The notes beneath the pieces were generated by a model that was not told the origin of the DNA, made no database searches, and saw only the letters and a list, made by a program, of their open reading frames with translations. Source: Escherichia phage A5-4. From it: DNA of 64,000 nt. Below, piece by piece: positions 11,508-37,104 of this stretch. The stretch lies in sequence record OP744025, one strand, 5' to 3'. The translations under genes were made by a program, and so were the position numbers. Position 1 is the first letter of the stretch; each line of letters starts with the position of its first letter.

Positions 11508-13091
11508 ATGAGTACACTTGCTCGTGGTATTGCAGGAGAACAAAGAGGCGTATTTTATGGATATGCTCTTTACGATCTGGAACAAAAAAGAAAGATAGCC
11601 TTTAAAGATTTAACTAAGGGTGACTCAGGGGCAAAGGGCGATAAGGGTGATCCTGGTCCAGAAGGTCCACAAGGTGATAAAGGAGATACCGGAGAGCAAG
11701 GCCCTGTAGGACCTCAAGGTCCTGCTGGTGCAACAGGGCCACAAGGTGTGTCTGGTGAAAGAGGACCTCAAGGTCCCGAAGGTCCTGTAGGACCTCAAGG
11801 TCCAATTGGTCCCGAAGGCCCAGTAGGGCCAATTGGCCCCCAAGGTCCAGAAGGTCCTAAAGGAGAGCAAGGTGACCAAGGCCCTTCTGGATCTCAAGGC
11901 CCTCAAGGATTAAAAGGGGATACAGGGCCACAAGGACCTCAAGGTCCCGTTGGACCCAGAGGAGAGACAGGTGCAACAGGACCTGTTGGACCTAAAGGGG
12001 ACACAGGCCCAACAGGTCCAAAAGGAGAAACGGGTGAACAGGGACCCATTGGTCCGCAAGGACCTAAGGGTGATACAGGGCCTGTGGGTCCTGCAAGCTT
12101 AACCTTCAGAGGTTTCTATGAACCTCTTGAAGAATACAACGAAAAGGATACAGTAGCTTATAATGGTTCTACTTATTTTGCGTTAAGAACCAGTACAGGA
12201 GCAACACCGGATATTTCTCCCGATGACTGGGCATTACTTGCAGCTGAAGGTGCAGTTGGACCACAAGGACCTATGGGACCAGAGGGTCCGCAAGGTATCG
12301 CTGGTGCTCAAGGTCAGGAAGGCCCTGTAGGACCGCAAGGTGAACAGGGTCCGGTTGGACCTGTTGGCCCACAAGGCCCACAAGGTCCTGCGGGTCAGGA
12401 AGGAATAGAAGGACCTCAGGGACCTCAAGGAGAAGAAGGCCCTGTGGGACCTCAGGGACCACAAGGGATTGTAGGACCAACAGGTCCACAAGGCCCTCAA
12501 GGCCCCAAAGGGGACACTGGTGCAGTTGGACCACAAGGTCCTCAAGGCCAACAAGGTCTTGATGGTCCACAAGGCCCTGCTGGTCCGCAAGGCGAAAGAG
12601 GTGTTACTGGACTAACCGGACCCCAAGGTCCCAAGGGTGATATCGGCCCTGTGGGTCCGGCTGGCCCTCAAGGTAAGGATGGTAATTCTTACACTATCTA
12701 CAACTGGGGCAACATATCAACGGGCTATGGTGAGATGGTAATACCTGGTGTTACTAACACAGTATTCAGAGTGAGACGAGTAGGAACCACATTAGAATAC
12801 AGTGTACTTAGTAAAGGTGGTGCGAATAGATACCTTGACTTCCATACCATAATTCCAGCCCCCTCTACAGGGGGCGCTGTAATTATCCAATCAGGAAATA
12901 CAACATTGACATCCTCCAGCTCTTTAAATGTTGTTACATCTGCACCTCCTGGTCTTGGTTTTCGACCAATATTCATCTCTTTAAAAGAGTGGGGAGATAG
13001 GGCAATAGTAACCATAGAGGTTTTCCACACAGGTAGAAGTGGAGATGCCAGTTACCCAATACATGTTCGTATGCTAACGACGAAGTATTGA
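11508..13091 (+). CDS. Collagen-like repeat protein with globular C-terminal domain
   Basis: 527 aa; long GPQGP/GxY runs; C-terminal ~150 aa non-collagen. Confidence 0.85.
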
Positions 13092-32921: not shown

Positions 32922-34157
32922 ATGATCCCTTTTCCAATTATTAATTTCGGTGGCGGTGTTCCACTACCTATAGGCGTTACAATCAAGTATGCAGTAAGTA
33001 CCAGCACCGGAAATATTTTTATTCTGCTTACCAATGGGCATCTATATGTAACCGGATCTAATTATCTAAACGGGCTTGGTAAAACAGGGACCACAAATAA
33101 TGCAACTTCGGGATGGTCACTTACTAACACAGGTGTTGAAGAAGTTTATGAGGTAGGAACAGAAAGTACACTGTACGGCGGTGTGTGGGTTAAGAAAAAT
33201 AATAACCACTATGAATATATCTCTGCTGTGGTCTTTCCCACTGTTGACACAACTCTCCAAAACAGTTGGAACGTCTTGCCTGAATCCGCATACATCGTTG
33301 ATGGTGTAAATATTTTATCTTCAGCAATACAAATAGCCAGATCATACGCGATCCAACCCGACGGCACTGTTTACAGACTGCTTCCCGAGGGGCCGCAAGT
33401 AGCTTGGCCTGAAAAAACAAAATACCTGTATTTTGCAAACTATAATGCTATTCGTGTCGAGGTGGATGGGACTTTAAAATACCGAGGCGACAATGGTGTA
33501 GATCAAGTGGCAGGCACTTCTGCCGGAACAACATTATCAACTTGGACAACCATCGGGGATTCTTCTGTAAGGTATATTAGGGCAAAATGTGCTCGTGGTC
33601 AAGTGGCTAACACGAGTGGCGGTTCAGGTGCTCAATCTATTGTACTTGTTGTTGCACAGAGGGAAGATGGGTCATGGGATGCAGTTGGATCGACAGCAAG
33701 AGCAGGGATAAACTCAACCAACGTCCTCGGTCCTAATTTAGCACCTATGACAAGCATACCTGCGGGGGTTGAAGTTTATGTCACTAACCAGGTCAGTTAT
33801 ACAAACGCAAGTGTGGGAACAAGGGGAGCATTGCAAGTGTTCATCTCCGATAGGGTTAATGGCATCTATCAATCAACGGGTGGACAAGGTGGATACACCT
33901 ATTCTTTATTTAGGAATCTTTCTATAACCACTAATGCAACATCTTTCGATAATATATCTGAAGATATTATAAACGATGGTGGTATCCTTCACATGACGGG
34001 TTCATTATCCGATACTTTCAAAGTGATTGTTAGTGGTAATGGTAATCTTTACTGGACAGGGAGAGGATATTCAGGGGCTATGTACCCTGCTGACTTTACG
34101 GCCTCTAATACGATAGCTCAGAAGTTTAACTTGGAAGGTATAGTTATTCCAGCATAA
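32922..34157 (+). CDS. Repeat beta-propeller-like tail accessory protein
   Basis: 411 aa with RCC1-like motifs (LYVTGSNYLNGLG, LYWTGRGYSG); last gene of plus arm. Confidence 0.55.
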   Translation: MIPFPIINFGGGVPLPIGVTIKYAVSTSTGNIFILLTNGHLYVTGSNYLNGLGKTGTTNNATSGWSLTNTGVEEVYEVGTESTLYGGVWVKKNNNHYEYISAVVFPTVDTTLQNSWNVLPESAYIVDGVNILSSAIQIARSYAIQPDGTVYRLLPEGPQVAWPEKTKYLYFANYNAIRVEVDGTLKYRGDNGVDQVAGTSAGTTLSTWTTIGDSSVRYIRAKCARGQVANTSGGSGAQSIVLVVAQREDGSWDAVGSTARAGINSTNVLGPNLAPMTSIPAGVEVYVTNQVSYTNASVGTRGALQVFISDRVNGIYQSTGGQGGYTYSLFRNLSITTNATSFDNISEDIINDGGILHMTGSLSDTFKVIVSGNGNLYWTGRGYSGAMYPADFTASNTIAQKFNLEGIVIPA

Positions 34158-34161
34158 AGAA

Positions 34162-34186
34162 AAGGCGCTCAAATGAGCGCCTTTAT
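34162..34186. terminator. Bidirectional terminator between convergent arms
   Basis: AAAGGCGCTC-AAAT-GAGCGCCTTT hairpin flanked by A-run and T-run. Confidence 0.8.
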
Positions 34187-34205: not shown

Positions 34206-35381
34206 TCAAAACGGAATATCGTCGTCAAAATCCATATCATCTACAGACATATTCACATGGCCTTCGATATCAGGTGTAGGTGAATCTTCTGCTGACGGAG
34301 TTAACTGCGGTTCCGGCTCAGGTTTCTTTTCTTCTTTCTTAGGAGTTGAAGCACCGTTACGGATCTTATCTTCCAGTTGACAGATGAATCGGAAATTCTC
34401 TTCAGTCTTAGCAATAAACGTTTCAATGTTATTACTTCCCCAACGGGCAGAAAGAATACCACACTGGCCTAAACGAGCACCAAAAGAATAATCATCCATA
34501 GATTTAAACTCTTCGCGAAGTTTTGCTTTAATGGAGTCCATCGCTGCAAGAACTTGCTCTACAACAATACCCTGATTTGCGATCGTTTCATTCGGGAACA
34601 TTGCATCTGTGATAGACAGTGCATTACCTAAACGAATGGGGAGATCATCCTTACCTTTACCTGAACGAGAACCTGTTCCGGTGTTTGCACCTTTTGGACC
34701 ATATGCTTTAAAGCCAGTTACAGTACCATCTTCTGCACGAACACCTGCAATACGACCACCTTCTGAAATCTGACCTGCTTGTTCATCAGTAAGATTTACA
34801 GTAACTTCTGTGCCATCTTCCAGCTTAACAACTACCTTATTGCCTTCGATAGATGTGATATCACCATAAATCTTCTTAGCTGCACCACCAGACGGCTTTT
34901 GCTGCTGTTGGGAACCACTTGATTGCTGCTGTTGCTGACGAGGCTCACGAGCACCGGATGCGTCAGTAATTTTGATACGTGCTTTCTTACCTTCTGTAGA
35001 AGAACCTTGACTACCATCTTCTTTGGTATAGGTCTTGATAACAACAGGTAAACGAATTTTCATACCCTCTTTAAGATCAGTGTAACCACCTTCAGGATTT
35101 TTAATCTGGAACTGATTCTCATACTTCAGGTTTTTAACTTCACCCTCACCAAAAGAAATCCATGCTTGATCTTCACCTTCTTTAAGAAGAACCGCATAGC
35201 GGTGGGTATTGTTAATGCTTTTCTGCTGACCAGTATTCTTGTCTTTGAAGGTAGTCACTCGTGGGCTACCATCTCCATTAATACGTTTGATCATGATACG
35301 TTCAATCGTACCTGCTGCGATGTTTACTGTGGTATCGGAAACAGCATCGTATACAGCATTGATAACTTTAACTTCAGACAT
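34206..35381 (-). CDS. SSB-like protein with acidic C-terminal tail
   Basis: Ends MDFDDDIPF; Q-rich linker; 391 aa multi-domain; consensus promoter and AAAGGAG RBS upstream. Confidence 0.7.
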   Translation of the reverse strand: MSEVKVINAVYDAVSDTTVNIAAGTIERIMIKRINGDGSPRVTTFKDKNTGQQKSINNTHRYAVLLKEGEDQAWISFGEGEVKNLKYENQFQIKNPEGGYTDLKEGMKIRLPVVIKTYTKEDGSQGSSTEGKKARIKITDASGAREPRQQQQQSSGSQQQQKPSGGAAKKIYGDITSIEGNKVVVKLEDGTEVTVNLTDEQAGQISEGGRIAGVRAEDGTVTGFKAYGPKGANTGTGSRSGKGKDDLPIRLGNALSITDAMFPNETIANQGIVVEQVLAAMDSIKAKLREEFKSMDDYSFGARLGQCGILSARWGSNNIETFIAKTEENFRFICQLEDKIRNGASTPKKEEKKPEPEPQLTPSAEDSPTPDIEGHVNMSVDDMDFDDDIPF

Positions 35382-35464: not shown

Positions 35465-35845
35465 TTAGAGATAAACTCGCTTAACTTTTTCATGAACATT
35501 ATCAAACAAAGTGTTGATCATCTGCAAGTCTTTAATAAGTTCTTCCGTAAATTGTTCTTCTTTGTGAGCAAACACACGAGAACGGTCAATGTTTACGGGA
35601 TCTGCACTTTGGTCACCAGACAGGTCGAAAATGTCGATACCAATACGAGCACGACCTTTTTCAATCTTATTCTCATCATCAATACCATAAACACTCATGA
35701 TTTGCATTTCACGATCTTCTTCACTGTTTGTATAGATGATCGTGGTATTCAGATTCTTAATGCCATCATAAATGTGGATATTACGTGTAGCTGAGATAGG
35801 AATCCAATCACCAACCAAATAATCTTTACCGTCGAAAATACTCAT
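35465..35845 (-). CDS. Hypothetical protein
   Basis: 126-aa ORF in colinear minus operon. Confidence 0.6.
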   Translation of the reverse strand: MSIFDGKDYLVGDWIPISATRNIHIYDGIKNLNTTIIYTNSEEDREMQIMSVYGIDDENKIEKGRARIGIDIFDLSGDQSADPVNIDRSRVFAHKEEQFTEELIKDLQMINTLFDNVHEKVKRVYL

Positions 35846-35899
35846 CTTCTTTCCTCTTTTGTTTAAGTGGGGCCATTATGCCCCACACTTAACTTTCTG

Positions 35900-36472
35900 T
35901 CAAGGACGTTTCGGTGGACTAACGACACCTTTTTTAGATAAAGGTAATTCGTCTGCATCTTTTCCACGGAGAGATTCTAACCACTCATCTAAAGATAGAG
36001 GTACTTTGCCAACACCCTTGGACCATACAGATAAGCAATACAGGTCGTATGCAGATGGGCCAGCATCACCCTTGTCACCATACGGCCCTTTTAAACTCGC
36101 CAACCAATCCTTTTCATTCAGTGGGATAGTGCCTGGATCTTCTTGTCGAAGAACTCTTAGGTATGTTTCATAAGCAGACTCTCCACGGGGACCCATTGGA
36201 CCAGGTAAACCTTGCGGTCCCTTTGCATACTCTAAATATGCAGACTTTGAACCATCATTGACCACTGAAACTTTATACAATGACCAAGCCAACAGAACTA
36301 TCCAACAAGCAAACAATGCAAGCGGGTAAGGGATCATTGAAGTAAAGAATGACAGGGCTAAAATTACAACCTTGTTCTTGTGATCACGACGGAAAGCGAT
36401 GATCACAGGGGCTAACCAGATAGCAAAGATAACCCACGCAGATAAGATAAACAACCAACTAATGTATTCCAT
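35900..36472 (-). CDS. Two-TM membrane protein with collagen/fibre-repeat ectodomain
   Basis: N-terminal hairpin of two TM helices (AFRRDHKNK...CWIVLLAWSL) then GPQGLPGPMGPRGE, SAYETYL, DWLASLKGPYGDKGD, SAYDLY, EWLESLRG; GAGGAGG RBS. Confidence 0.7.
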   Translation of the reverse strand: MEYISWLFILSAWVIFAIWLAPVIIAFRRDHKNKVVILALSFFTSMIPYPLALFACWIVLLAWSLYKVSVVNDGSKSAYLEYAKGPQGLPGPMGPRGESAYETYLRVLRQEDPGTIPLNEKDWLASLKGPYGDKGDAGPSAYDLYCLSVWSKGVGKVPLSLDEWLESLRGKDADELPLSKKGVVSPPKRP

Positions 36473-36660
36473 TAAGCCTCCTCAGTATCGTCTTTAAAGT
36501 AATCTAACATCCAACTCTCTACAGGTTTCGCATAGTAACCCGTTCGCCCTTTCTTTTGGAACTCCATAACAATTTCATTTGCAATACCTTTTGTGATTGC
36601 GATCCCGATCAGTGCACCACCAGGCCCCATTACTGCATGTGAACTAAGATCATTACTCAT
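36472..36660 (-). CDS. Hypothetical small protein
   Basis: 62-aa ORF; TAATG coupling to downstream gene. Confidence 0.55.
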   Translation of the reverse strand: MSNDLSSHAVMGPGGALIGIAITKGIANEIVMEFQKKGRTGYYAKPVESWMLDYFKDDTEEA

Positions 36661-36952
36661 TTTTAACCCCCTTCATTTTATCTCTTAAACTTTGAGCATC
36701 CCACGTATAACCTGAGGAGATACCTTTTTCACGTTCACTATCTTTGAACTTGCAAATTACAGATTTTGCTTCACCATCAACAACAACCGCATAACTGTTG
36801 TAGTAATTGTGTTGCTTCTTGCAAAATTCGTGTAACTCCTTGACCTCTGTTGGCATCAGAGAAGGTAGATTCTTGTATCGCTTTGTATGCTCGTCTTCAC
36901 CTTCTTTACAACCTATGAGAAGAAGTATACATAAAACGATCAACCTTTTCAA
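36653..36952 (-). CDS. Putative lipoprotein
   Basis: Signal peptide with lipobox LLIGC; TTG start after GGAGG. Confidence 0.55.
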   Translation of the reverse strand: MKRLIVLCILLLIGCKEGEDEHTKRYKNLPSLMPTEVKELHEFCKKQHNYYNSYAVVVDGEAKSVICKFKDSEREKGISSGYTWDAQSLRDKMKGVKNE

Positions 36953-37104
36953 TAGTTACCTCCTAAATATTTTGTGATCTCTACTGCAAATATTGTTCCA
37001 AGTATAAACCATGTTGCACTTAACACGTTGAAAGGTAAAAACCTTGAACCTGCAAGAGAAACCATAATAAAGAACGTTACAAAAATTTCTGGAGAAATCA
37101 TCAT
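36949..37104 (-). CDS. Small hydrophobic protein (51 aa; absent from track)
   Basis: ATG overlaps upstream stop (ATGA); TGA overlaps downstream TTG start; one predicted TM. Confidence 0.5.
   Translation of the reverse strand: MMISPEIFVTFFIMVSLAGSRFLPFNVLSATWFILGTIFAVEITKYLGGNY

What the first reader, a model, noticed from the sequence alone, without database searches (positions are those of the whole stretch)
35900..36472. Membrane protein fusing an Imm-like two-helix anchor to collagen/fibre-repeat motifs
The N-terminal 65 aa form two TM helices with a pattern recalled from small superinfection-immunity (Imm-type) proteins (AFRRDHKNK...CWIVLLAWSL). The C-terminal ~120 aa carry Gly-X-Y runs (GPQGLPGPMGPRGE, GPYGDKGDAGP) and two copies of the SAY-x-x-Y...(D/E)WL-x-SL-(K/R)G motif that is iterated in the 1263-aa collagen-like structural protein of this phage. 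An early-arm membrane protein that displays the phage's own fibre-repeat motif could act as a decoy or exclusion factor against related incoming particles; I do not recall this architecture being described.
Basis: partly seen in the sequence, partly recalled or inferred. Interest (0 to 1): 0.75.

Follow-up and report, generated by a model that had tools for sequence, protein, structure and literature searches.

The report
T4 Imm-like anchor with mini-fibre stalk
This phage gene encodes a relative of the phage T4 Imm protein, which stops a second phage from injecting its DNA, joined to a short tail-fibre-like stalk and a conserved end peptide. That makes it an unusual but recognisable variant of a known anti-superinfection protein.

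Summary
The ORF is real: 35900-36472, minus strand, 190 aa, with a strong RBS. It is conserved in five Septuagintavirus genomes, with dN/dS about 0.17.

**N-terminal domain.** Residues 1-66 are a genuine but divergent homologue of T4 Imm (Pfam PF14373). Alone the protein scores 18.8 bits, below the Pfam cut-off of 27.9. The family profile, however, aligns to T4 Imm with 96% hhalign probability (E 4.5e-9). It also retrieves bona fide PF14373 proteins, and the predicted fold matches a phage Imm.

**C-terminal half.** It has the syntax of a tail-fibre shaft: Gly-X-Y run, 31-aa SAY…WL-SL-K/R-G repeat, Gly-X-Y run, second repeat.

**Family.** About 25 clusters at 50% identity, all seen in Vequintavirinae-type contexts. 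They share the Imm core and a conserved C-terminal peptide (G-K/R-D-A-D/E-E-I/L-P-L-S-K-x-G-V, then basic residues). The linker between them varies: 0-10 Gly-X-Y triplets and 0, 1 or 2 fibre repeats. The repeats are therefore an optional stalk. They were not copied from this phage's 1263-aa fibre, whose three repeats are a shorter 24-aa variant.

**Best explanation (inferred).** An inner-membrane superinfection-exclusion protein that blocks tape-measure-mediated DNA entry as T4 Imm does, with a probably trimeric periplasmic stalk. The "decoy" idea is not supported. I rate it a new variant of a known kind, of moderate interest.

The parts
35900..36472 (-). Whole gene, 190 aa plus TGA stop (hypothetical protein A54_252 of Septuagintavirus sv54)
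   Evidence: ORF list. Identical protein found in the protein collection. Conserved at 90-99.5% protein identity in phages A73, W70, A7_1, LTH01 and UPEC06. dN/dS 0.16-0.17.
36477..36483 (-). Shine-Dalgarno GAGGAGG, 4 nt before the ATG; the ATG overlaps the TAA of the upstream 62-aa ORF (probable translational coupling)
   Evidence: Read directly from the sequence.
36275..36472 (-). Imm-like membrane domain, residues 1-66: helices 2-19/21-28 (kink at P22), basic loop FRRDHKN (27-33), helices 34-44 and 50-65
   Evidence: PF14373 at 18.8 bits, E 0.0015, partial match. phrog_1039 'immunity to superinfection' at E 5e-6. hhalign against T4 Imm: probability 96%. AF2 pLDDT about 90 in this region. 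Foldseek hit to the Aeromonas phage pIS4-A superinfection immunity protein: probability 0.99, rmsd 3.2 A over 67 columns.
36374..36394 (-). Basic loop, residues 27-33; R29 aligns with T4 Imm R33
   Evidence: Column mapping from the hhalign alignment. R29, H31 and R32 are nearly invariant and N33 is invariant in the family. R33A lowers T4 Imm activity (bioRxiv 10.64898/2026.03.06.709160).
36221..36274 (-). Juxtamembrane linker, residues 67-84, with a degenerate first SAY motif (77-79); relatives carry a 5-codon insertion here
   Evidence: Alignment of five Septuagintavirus orthologues. AF2 pLDDT below 50.
36182..36220 (-). Gly-X-Y run 1, residues 85-97 (GPQGLPGPMGPRG)
   Evidence: Pattern scan. 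Pfam Collagen at E 0.03 for this protein; 11 of 26 family members hit at E below 0.01.
36086..36178 (-). Fibre-type repeat 1, residues 99-129, predicted helix-loop-helix (helices 100-111 and 120-127)
   Evidence: Pattern scan. PHROG tail-fibre hits. AF2 secondary structure at low confidence.
36056..36088 (-). Gly-X-Y run 2, residues 129-139 (GPYGDKGDAGP)
   Evidence: Read from the translation.
35963..36055 (-). Fibre-type repeat 2, residues 140-170; aligns with the single repeat of the one-repeat family members
   Evidence: Pattern scan. Family alignment. Unit comparison.
35903..35962 (-). Conserved C-terminal peptide KDADELPLSKKGVVSPPKRP, residues 171-190; the only part besides the Imm core shared by nearly all family members
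   Evidence: G170, D172, A173, P177, L178, G182 and V183 are invariant in 26 sequences. A PLSKxG-type tail is also present in more distant members. No amino-acid change among the five orthologues. The motif occurs nowhere else in the window.
36949..37104 (-). Companion gene: 51-aa two-helix membrane protein, always upstream of the Imm-like gene in relatives
   Evidence: phrog_22594. Homologues sit directly upstream, or separated only by the lipoprotein gene, in L008, L011, L019 and L018.
36653..36952 (-). Optional companion: 99-aa lipoprotein (lipobox LLIGC)
   Evidence: phrog_15849. Present in Certrevirus relatives, where it overlaps the Imm-like gene. Absent in phage A7_1 and in contig L011.
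18223..20646 (+). Tape measure protein, the inferred kind of target in related incoming phages; one hydrophobic segment near residues 602-620
   Evidence: phrog_5255 at E 1.7e-290. Hydropathy scan. Its role as a target is inference from T4.

Best explanation
The gene encodes an inner-membrane superinfection-exclusion protein of the T4 Imm type.

**Shown**
- Residues 1-66 are homologous to T4 Imm, including the conserved Pro (P22), Ala (A26) and the arginine (R29) that corresponds to T4 R33.
- The gene lies in the leftward non-structural arm and is under purifying selection.
- The family consists of an Imm core, a variable linker and a conserved C-terminal peptide.

**Inferred**
- The N-terminus faces the periplasm, the basic loop faces the cytoplasm, and the second hydrophobic stretch crosses once. 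Residues 67-190 would then lie in the periplasm.
- There the Gly-X-Y runs and helix-loop-helix fibre repeats would form a short three-chain stalk, as the same modules do in tail-fibre shafts. The stalk would hold three Imm cores together and present the conserved C-terminal peptide.
- When a related myovirus contracts and its tape measure protein tries to enter the inner membrane, the Imm core binds it and blocks channel formation. This is what has been reported for T4 Imm and gp29.
- The stalk and end peptide would add avidity or a second contact with the tail tip or the envelope.
- The number of repeats (0, 1 or 2) sets the stalk length and is not essential to the mechanism.
For: **Homology of the core to Imm**
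- T4 Imm scores 58.2 bits on PF14373.
- hhalign of T4 Imm against the family alignment: probability 96%, E 4.5e-9, 63 columns, with P26/P22, A30/A26, R33/R29, W55/W57 and W61/W63 aligned.
- 15 of 26 family members hit PF14373 at E below 0.01; the best is 3.8e-6.
- The family profile retrieves small PF14373 proteins from 1.84 billion representatives at E 1e-7 to 1e-4. Of 10 sampled, all hit PF14373 and 9 pass Pfam's cut-off.
- phrog_1039 'immunity to superinfection' at E 5e-6.
- The AF2 model of the core has pLDDT about 90. It matches a T4-like Aeromonas phage Imm in BFVD (probability 0.99, rmsd 3.2 A).

**Mechanism of the reference protein**
- T4 Imm co-purifies with the tape measure protein gp29 and is proposed to block its membrane insertion. 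R33A and W50A reduce exclusion (bioRxiv 10.64898/2026.03.06.709160).
- This phage is a myovirus with a sheath and an 807-aa tape measure protein that has one hydrophobic segment.

**Topology**
- Charge counts over 26 members: N-tail 0 positive, loop +3.3, C-flank neutral.
- The second hydrophobic stretch is only 32-33 residues, too short to cross twice.

**Real, selected gene**
- dN/dS is 0.16-0.18 in the linker and repeats. The C-tail has no amino-acid change.

**Modular family**
- Shown by the alignments.

**Envelope neighbourhood**
- A conserved small two-helix membrane protein and an optional lipoprotein lie just upstream.
Against: - No functional data exist for any family member.
- This protein alone fails Pfam's cut-off for PF14373 (18.8 bits against 27.9) and matches only the first 26 of 42 model positions.
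- The loop that contacts gp29 in T4 (around W50) is not conserved. It carries a 6-residue insertion, and T4 W50 aligns with A52.
- PF14373 modules also occur fused to unrelated regions in other proteins (P0111, P0112, P0128). The domain could therefore be only an anchor.
- The topology is predicted, not measured.
- The Gly-X-Y runs (5 and 4 triplets here, as few as 0-4 in relatives) are short for a stable triple helix.
- The AF2 confidence for residues 67-190 is about 50.
- No PADLOC hit.
Confidence: 0.55

Rival explanations
1. The Imm-like region is only a two-helix membrane anchor. The active part is the conserved C-terminal peptide on its stalk. It would bind a host envelope component (peptidoglycan, a periplasmic or outer-membrane protein, or the co-encoded lipoprotein) and remodel the envelope of the infected cell. 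Examples would be masking a receptor or stabilising the envelope against lysis from without. It would not touch the incoming tape measure protein.
For: - The C-terminal peptide is as conserved as the core, while the linker is free to vary.
- PF14373 modules are found fused to other, unrelated regions.
- The T4 loop residue W50 is not conserved.
- The neighbouring genes encode envelope proteins.
Against: - Within the core, the conserved positions include the loop motif and the arginine that matters for T4 Imm function. A mere anchor would not need these.
- The lipoprotein is missing from phage A7_1 and contig L011, so it cannot be an obligate partner.
- No known binding motif was recognised in the tail.
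Confidence: 0.2
2. It is a lysis-timing component: a holin, an antiholin or a lysis-inhibition factor. Possibly it acts with the small two-helix protein upstream.
For: - It is a small protein with two hydrophobic helices and a charged C-terminus.
- T4 Imm has been said to resemble a holin, and imm mutants have a partial lysis-inhibition defect (review PMC6832632).
- A 51-aa two-helix protein is always encoded next to it.
- No holin has been firmly assigned in these phages (PMC7344957).
Against: - No endolysin gene lies nearby.
- In Certrevirus the candidate holin lies beside the SleB-like lysin, and the Rz/Rz1 spanin pair lies beside the terminase (PMC7344957). The Septuagintavirus phage KEC4 likewise has dispersed endolysin candidates and an Rz-like pair elsewhere in the genome (PMC12942863).
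- Homology points to Imm, not to any holin family.
Confidence: 0.08
3. One reading: the protein displays the phage's own fibre repeat so that incoming related particles, or their fibre partners, bind it instead of their real target.
For: The repeats belong to the same motif class as three repeats in the phage's 1263-aa tail fibre.
Against: - The repeats are absent from most family members.
- They are a 31-aa variant that scores higher against family-internal repeats than against the fibre's 24-aa repeats.
- The motif is a shaft element flanked by Gly-X-Y runs, not a receptor-binding part.
- The predicted location is the periplasm, not the cell surface.
Confidence: 0.05
4. It is a membrane-bound assembly or scaffolding factor for the collagen-like tail fibres. 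It would co-trimerise with fibre chains through the shared Gly-X-Y and repeat modules.
For: It has the same module syntax as the fibre shafts of the 1263-aa and 527-aa fibres.
Against: - The gene lies in the non-structural arm, not among the fibre genes.
- Relatives with only 2-4 Gly-X-Y triplets could hardly co-assemble with fibres.
- The predicted periplasmic location is the wrong compartment for virion assembly.
- Homology of the core to Imm is left unexplained.
Confidence: 0.04

Closest known systems
Phage T4 Imm (gene imm, 83 aa; Pfam PF14373 Imm_superinfect)
   Same: - Homologous two-helix hydrophobic core with a short basic loop (hhalign probability 96%).
- Conserved Pro, Ala and Arg positions (R33 in T4, R29 here).
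- Encoded by a virulent myovirus of E. coli among non-structural genes.
- The predicted fold matches a T4-like phage Imm.
   Different: - 190 aa instead of 83.
- A 124-residue extension made of Gly-X-Y runs, two fibre repeats and a conserved end peptide.
- A 6-residue insertion in the second hydrophobic stretch, at the place of the T4 loop that faces gp29. W50 is not conserved.
- Scores below Pfam's cut-off on its own.
- Function untested.
Certrevirus proteins CR3_038, CR8 gp039, PBES 02 ADU18_0146 and KaOmega gp38 (105-127 aa; some are auto-named 'Superinfection immunity protein' in UniRef)
   Same: - Same family: core at 39-47% identity over the aligned columns.
- Same genome position.
- Same conserved C-terminal peptide.
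- Same small two-helix gene upstream.
   Different: They have only a short Gly-X-Y run and no fibre repeat. The window protein has two repeats, the most seen in the family.
Phage HK97 gp15
   Same: [quoted passage not shown]
   Different: No sequence relationship was tested or is claimed here. It belongs to a temperate siphovirus and, to my knowledge, has no collagen or fibre modules.
Collagen-like phage tail fibres with SAY…WL-SL-KG repeats (phrog_3904, 15437, 4440, 19976)
   Same: Same alternation of Gly-X-Y runs and helix-loop-helix repeats.
   Different: - No virion-attachment or receptor-binding domain.
- The N-terminus is a membrane anchor.
- Only about 100 residues of 'shaft'.
- The repeat loop is 7 residues longer than in the phage's own fibre.

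Membership tests
Imm_superinfect (Pfam PF14373; type member T4 Imm) | Score at or above Pfam's gathering cut-off (27.9 bits) over the 42-position model | tested here: not met
   18.8 bits, E 0.0015, positions 1-26 of 42 only. Among 26 family members, 15 hit at E below 0.01; the best is 3.8e-6. Four relatives carry a precomputed PF14373 assignment.
Imm_superinfect (Pfam PF14373; type member T4 Imm) | Demonstrable homology to T4 Imm over the whole two-helix core | tested here: met
   hhalign of T4 Imm against alignment A2: probability 96%, E 4.5e-9, 63 columns. The family profile retrieves PF14373 proteins, and 9 of 10 sampled pass the cut-off. Foldseek match to a phage Imm.
Imm_superinfect (Pfam PF14373; type member T4 Imm) | Conserved loop arginine (T4 R33), needed for exclusion | tested here: met
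   T4 R33 aligns with R29. R29 is conserved in at least 90% of 26 members. The functional importance comes from T4 only.
Imm_superinfect (Pfam PF14373; type member T4 Imm) | Loop tryptophan (T4 W50) that faces the tape measure protein | tested here: not met
   T4 W50 aligns with A52, next to a 6-residue insertion (M46-L51) that contains the nearly invariant P48. This could reflect a different target protein.
Imm_superinfect (Pfam PF14373; type member T4 Imm) | Blocks DNA entry of superinfecting phage; binds the tape measure protein | not testable with these tools
   Needs plating, DNA-entry and co-purification experiments.
Imm_superinfect (Pfam PF14373; type member T4 Imm) | N-terminus periplasmic, two membrane spans | tested here: inconclusive
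   Charge distribution and segment lengths fit this topology. AF2 gives helices 2-28, 34-44 and 50-65. No coordinates or experiment were available to decide whether 34-65 crosses once.
Collagen triple-helix repeat (Pfam PF01391) | Long uninterrupted Gly-X-Y run scoring above 27.2 bits | tested here: not met
   14.4 bits, E 0.03. The runs have 5 and 4 triplets only. 11 of 26 relatives hit at E below 0.01.
Phage tail fibre with SAY…WL-SL-KG repeats | Repeat motif flanked by Gly-X-Y runs | tested here: met
   Two full copies and one degenerate copy. PHROG tail-fibre families at E 2e-7 to 7e-5.
Phage tail fibre with SAY…WL-SL-KG repeats | Virion protein with attachment and receptor-binding domains, encoded among structural genes | tested here: not met
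   The N-terminus is a membrane anchor and the C-terminus is a 20-residue peptide. The gene is on the opposite strand, in the non-structural arm.
Two-component spanin (i-spanin) | Single N-terminal membrane helix plus a periplasmic domain, followed by or embedding an outer-membrane lipoprotein gene; one pair per genome | tested here: not met
   Here the lipoprotein gene lies upstream and is dispensable. The Rz/Rz1 pair of Vequintavirinae lies next to the terminase (PMC7344957; PMC12942863).

The most novel reading that the evidence does not exclude
A tail-fibre shaft module has been co-opted for defence. Three Imm cores would be tied together by a collagen/fibre-repeat stalk into a threefold 'mini-fibre' rooted in the inner membrane. 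Its conserved end peptide would dock onto the threefold tail tip or tape measure complex of an incoming relative (or onto the cell wall), and the stalk length (0-2 repeats) would tune its reach. That would be a symmetric, stalked form of Imm-type exclusion not described for any phage.
Probability: 0.2. Interest if true: 0.7.

Novelty: new variant of a known kind. Interest (0 to 1): 0.45.

Why it matters
**Why the timing is good.** How T4 Imm works has only just been addressed, in a 2026 preprint reporting that it binds the tape measure protein.

**What this family adds.** It is a natural series in which a homologous Imm-type core carries no stalk, a short one or a long one, plus a conserved end peptide. 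It occurs in a poorly studied group of therapeutic-candidate coliphages (Vequintavirinae).

**What it could show, if the exclusion role holds.**
- How exclusion specificity is built.
- Whether oligomerisation matters.
- A clear case of fibre-shaft modules reused outside the virion.

**Practical relevance.** Exclusion genes affect how phages can be combined in cocktails.

**If it turns out not to exclude.** Then PF14373 annotations ('superinfection immunity protein') on such proteins are misleading.

Tried and rejected
1. **Spanin reading of the lipoprotein plus membrane-protein pair.** Rejected. The gene order is reversed. The lipoprotein is absent from phage A7_1 and contig L011. The Rz/Rz1 pair is reported elsewhere in these genomes.
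2. **Lipoprotein as a T4 Spackle equivalent, which would make an imm+sp cassette.** No similarity (BLASTP E 1.3). The AF2 model is alpha/beta with pLDDT 63, and no PDB match has E below 0.3. A weak EexN entry-exclusion lipoprotein hit (E 0.03, 14 bits against a cut-off of 33) covers the signal peptide and is not evidence.
3. **Solved structures for the repeat or the whole protein.** None found by sequence or by fold.
4. **Capture of the repeats from the phage's own 1263-aa fibre.** Not supported. There is also no DNA-level direct repeat between the two units, so the duplication is old.
5. **PADLOC defence models.** No hit for this gene or five neighbours.
6. **Pfam 'Sel_put' and NCBIfam 'KCU-star' hits on residues 97-124.** Far below their cut-offs; treated as chance.
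7. **Literature.** Searches found nothing on this architecture. The 1993 paper on T4 Imm topology is not held.
8. **AlphaFold database fold library.** Not available.
9. **First word-indexed protein search.** Found only two clusters. The family emerged only after phage relatives were aligned.
Full report
**1. What is in the sequence**

The window comes from a Vequintavirinae myovirus of E. coli. The 3-kb region around the finding is 93-95% identical to phages A73, W70, LTH01, UPEC06 and A7_1. The protein is identical to hypothetical protein A54_252 of Septuagintavirus sv54.

The ORF is exactly as reported: 35900..36472, minus strand, 190 aa. A GAGGAGG ribosome-binding site lies 4 nt upstream. 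The start codon overlaps the stop codon of the preceding 62-aa ORF.

The gene sits in the leftward non-structural arm. Downstream on that strand are a DUF7325 gene and a 391-aa gene whose product ends in an SSB-like acidic tip. A DNA polymerase gene lies further upstream. The rightward arm encodes the sheath, tape measure protein, baseplate and several tail fibres.

The five sequenced orthologues keep the whole architecture. dN/dS is 0.16-0.18, so this is a real gene under selection and not a sequencing fusion.

**2. The N-terminal domain**

On its own the protein gives only a sub-threshold, partial Pfam match to Imm_superinfect: PF14373, 18.8 bits against a cut-off of 27.9, model positions 1-26 of 42. 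It also matches PHROG 1039 'immunity to superinfection' at E 5e-6.

I checked the link to T4 directly.
- T4 Imm, fetched from NC_000866, scores 58.2 bits on PF14373.
- A profile-profile comparison of T4 Imm with the alignment of this protein's family gives probability 96% and E 4.5e-9 over 63 columns.
- In that alignment T4 P26, A30, R33, W55 and W61 fall on P22, A26, R29, W57 and W63. The first three are invariant or nearly invariant in the family.
- The family profile, searched against 1.84 billion representative proteins, pulls out many small proteins at E 1e-7 to 1e-4. Of ten I sampled, all hit PF14373 and nine pass its cut-off.
- AlphaFold2 models residues 1-65 with pLDDT about 90, as helices 2-19, 21-28, 34-44 and 50-65.
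- The only meaningful fold match outside the family is the 'Superinfection immunity protein' of the T4-like Aeromonas phage pIS4-A (probability 0.99, rmsd 3.2 A over 67 columns).

The core is therefore a divergent but true homologue of T4 Imm. One difference may matter. A six-residue insertion with a nearly invariant proline sits where T4 has the loop around W50, and W50 itself is not conserved.

**3. The C-terminal half**

Residues 85-170 read as follows:
- Gly-X-Y run (5 triplets);
- a 31-aa repeat, SAY…DWLASLKG;
- Gly-X-Y run (4 triplets);
- a 31-aa repeat, SAY…EWLESLRG.

A degenerate SAY motif lies just before this region. Tail-fibre PHROGs match the region. AlphaFold2 predicts each repeat as helix-loop-helix, but with low confidence.

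The same syntax is found in the phage's 1263-aa tail fibre (phrog_3904). That fibre has three repeats between long Gly-X-Y runs. Its repeats are 24 residues long and only distantly similar: 39% identity over 51 residues with a 7-residue gap. Unit-by-unit scores are lower than those between this protein's repeats and repeats inside its own family.

**4. The family, which changes the picture**

A translated search of phage genomes found shorter relatives at the same genome position in Certrevirus and related Vequintavirinae: CR3, CR8, CR9, PBES 02, KaOmega, several Pectobacterium and Enterobacter phages, and Salmonella phage SSBI34.

Aligning them, then searching with the alignment and with the profile, defines a small family. 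Twenty-two representatives at 50% identity have E below 1e-10, and a few more lie just beyond that.

All members share two things:
- the Imm-like core;
- a C-terminal peptide, consensus G-(K/R)-D-A-(D/E)-E-I-P-L-S-K-x-G-V-L-K-P-R-K.

What lies between them varies freely:
- nothing at all (P0082);
- two to about ten Gly-X-Y triplets (most members);
- Gly-X-Y plus one fibre repeat (P0027, P0028, P0035, P0038, P0075, P0076, P0077, and P0115, whose repeat is the canonical 24-aa type);
- two repeats, seen only in the Septuagintavirus proteins.

The second repeat of the window protein aligns with the single repeat of the one-repeat members. The two units share no DNA-level repeat.

The fibre repeats are therefore an optional, old, family-internal stalk element. 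The conserved working parts are the Imm core and the end peptide.

Among the five close orthologues, substitutions are concentrated in the linker and repeat region. There dS is 0.29-0.52, against 0-0.10 in the core. The core and end peptide are almost unchanged. This patch is one of several mosaic low-identity patches in the neighbourhood.

Every context I could read is Vequintavirinae-like: DUF7325 or phiTE-type genes nearby, and a small 42-51-aa two-helix membrane protein gene upstream. A 99-aa lipoprotein gene is inserted between the two in some phages. It is missing from A7_1 and from contig L011.

**5. How it most likely works**

A 2026 preprint reports that T4 Imm co-purifies with the tape measure protein gp29. 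It faces the hydrophobic patch of gp29's helical-bundle domain and so is proposed to prevent the membrane insertion that opens the DNA channel. R33A and W50A weaken exclusion, and the N-terminus of Imm is stated to be periplasmic (bioRxiv 10.64898/2026.03.06.709160).

The present phage is also a contractile-tailed phage. It has an 807-aa tape measure protein with one hydrophobic segment.

By homology, I propose that the core acts in the same way against incoming relatives.

Topology is inferred, not shown.
- Over 26 members the N-tail has no positive charge, the loop carries +3.3, and the flank after the second hydrophobic stretch is neutral.
- That second stretch has only 32-33 residues, too few to cross twice.
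- This puts residues 67-190 in the periplasm.

There the Gly-X-Y runs and repeats would form a three-chain stalk, by analogy with trimeric collagen-like fibre shafts (established knowledge for Gly-X-Y sequences). The stalk would tie three cores together and present the conserved peptide.

What the peptide binds is unknown. It occurs nowhere else in the window and matches no known family.

I put this explanation at 0.55.

**6. Rivals**

- *Anchor only.* The core may be only an anchor, with the end peptide acting on a host envelope component (0.2). PF14373 modules are fused to unrelated regions in other proteins.
- *Lysis timing.* This role (0.08) is weakened by the absence of a nearby lysin gene. 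Candidate holin and Rz/Rz1 genes are also reported elsewhere in these genomes.
- *Fibre assembly.* This role (0.04) conflicts with the gene's location and with the predicted periplasmic site.

**7. Comparison with what is known, and novelty**

The protein works like, and is homologous to, T4 Imm. It does not pass Pfam's own threshold, and it differs by a 124-residue modular extension and an altered loop.

Shorter family members are already auto-named 'Superinfection immunity protein' in UniRef. The Imm likeness is thus not new in databases, although this protein itself is 'hypothetical'.

I found no paper on an Imm-type protein carrying collagen or fibre-repeat modules or the conserved end peptide.

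I rate it a new variant of a known kind, interest 0.45. The most novel reading not excluded is a threefold, stalked 'mini-fibre' form of Imm built from co-opted fibre-shaft modules (probability about 0.2, interest 0.7 if true).

**8. Limits**

- No function was tested.
- Topology and trimer formation are inferred.
- The model of the C-terminal half is of low confidence.
- The family census rests on sequence databases without annotation.
- The AlphaFold database fold library was unavailable, and the original T4 Imm topology paper could not be read.

Noticed in passing
window 36949-37104 (-): A 51-aa two-helix membrane protein (phrog_22594, function unknown). A homologous small gene always lies just upstream of the Imm-like gene in relatives (L008 2568-2720, L011 2849-3001, L019 3856-3999, L018 1414-1542). 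This suggests a conserved two-gene membrane module.
   Followed up: partly
window 36653-36952 (-): A 99-aa lipoprotein (lipobox LLIGC, Lys at +2; phrog_15849, function unknown) lies between the small membrane gene and the Imm-like gene. It is present in Certrevirus relatives but deleted in phage A7_1 and absent in contig L011. It shows no similarity to T4 Spackle. A sub-threshold EexN entry-exclusion lipoprotein hit covers only the signal peptide. The AF2 model is alpha/beta (pLDDT 63) and has no PDB match.
   Followed up: yes
window 36472-36660 (-): A 62-aa ORF translationally coupled to the Imm-like gene. It matches no Pfam, PHROG, NCBIfam or PADLOC family above threshold. It is annotated in the Septuagintavirus relatives (A73, A7_1, LTH01, UPEC06) but is absent from the Certrevirus loci examined, where the lipoprotein gene abuts the Imm-like gene directly.
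   Followed up: partly
window 35875-35903 (-) and 35867-35886: A near-consensus sigma-70-type promoter (TTGACA, 17 nt, CATAAT; 11 of 12) overlaps the stop codon of the Imm-like gene and a GC-rich hairpin (GTGGGGC…GCCCCAC). It is positioned to drive the downstream DUF7325 gene (35465-35845).
   Followed up: no
window 34161-34184: A perfect 10-bp stem with T runs on both sides. It is a likely bidirectional terminator where the rightward structural arm and the leftward arm converge.
   Followed up: no
window 34206-35381 (-): A 391-aa protein (phrog_4477, function unknown) ending in DDMDFDDDIPF, the acidic tip typical of single-stranded DNA-binding proteins. It is not annotated as such in relatives.
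   Followed up: no
window 37340-37100, 36300-36000, 34790-34600: Patches where identity to otherwise 96-100% identical Septuagintavirus genomes falls to 77-88%. This is mosaic exchange. One patch coincides with the linker and repeat part of the Imm-like gene, where dS is 0.29-0.52 against 0-0.10 in the core.
   Followed up: partly
window 36230-36232 (between codons 81 and 82 of the gene): Relatives A7_1, LTH01 and UPEC06 carry a five-codon insertion (SKCLE, SKYLE, SKYAD) inside the degenerate first SAY motif. The window phage and A73 lack it.
   Followed up: partly
window 11508-13091 (+): A second collagen-like tail fibre (527 aa, phrog_5073) with two very long uninterrupted Gly-X-Y runs and no SAY…WL-SL-KG repeat.
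   Followed up: no
window 32922-34157 (+): A 411-aa protein at the end of the fibre cluster. Its N-terminal 99 residues weakly match a PHROG named 'regulator of chromosome condensation'. The gene at the same position in contig L011 carries RCC1/WD40-type beta-propeller Pfam hits.
   Followed up: no
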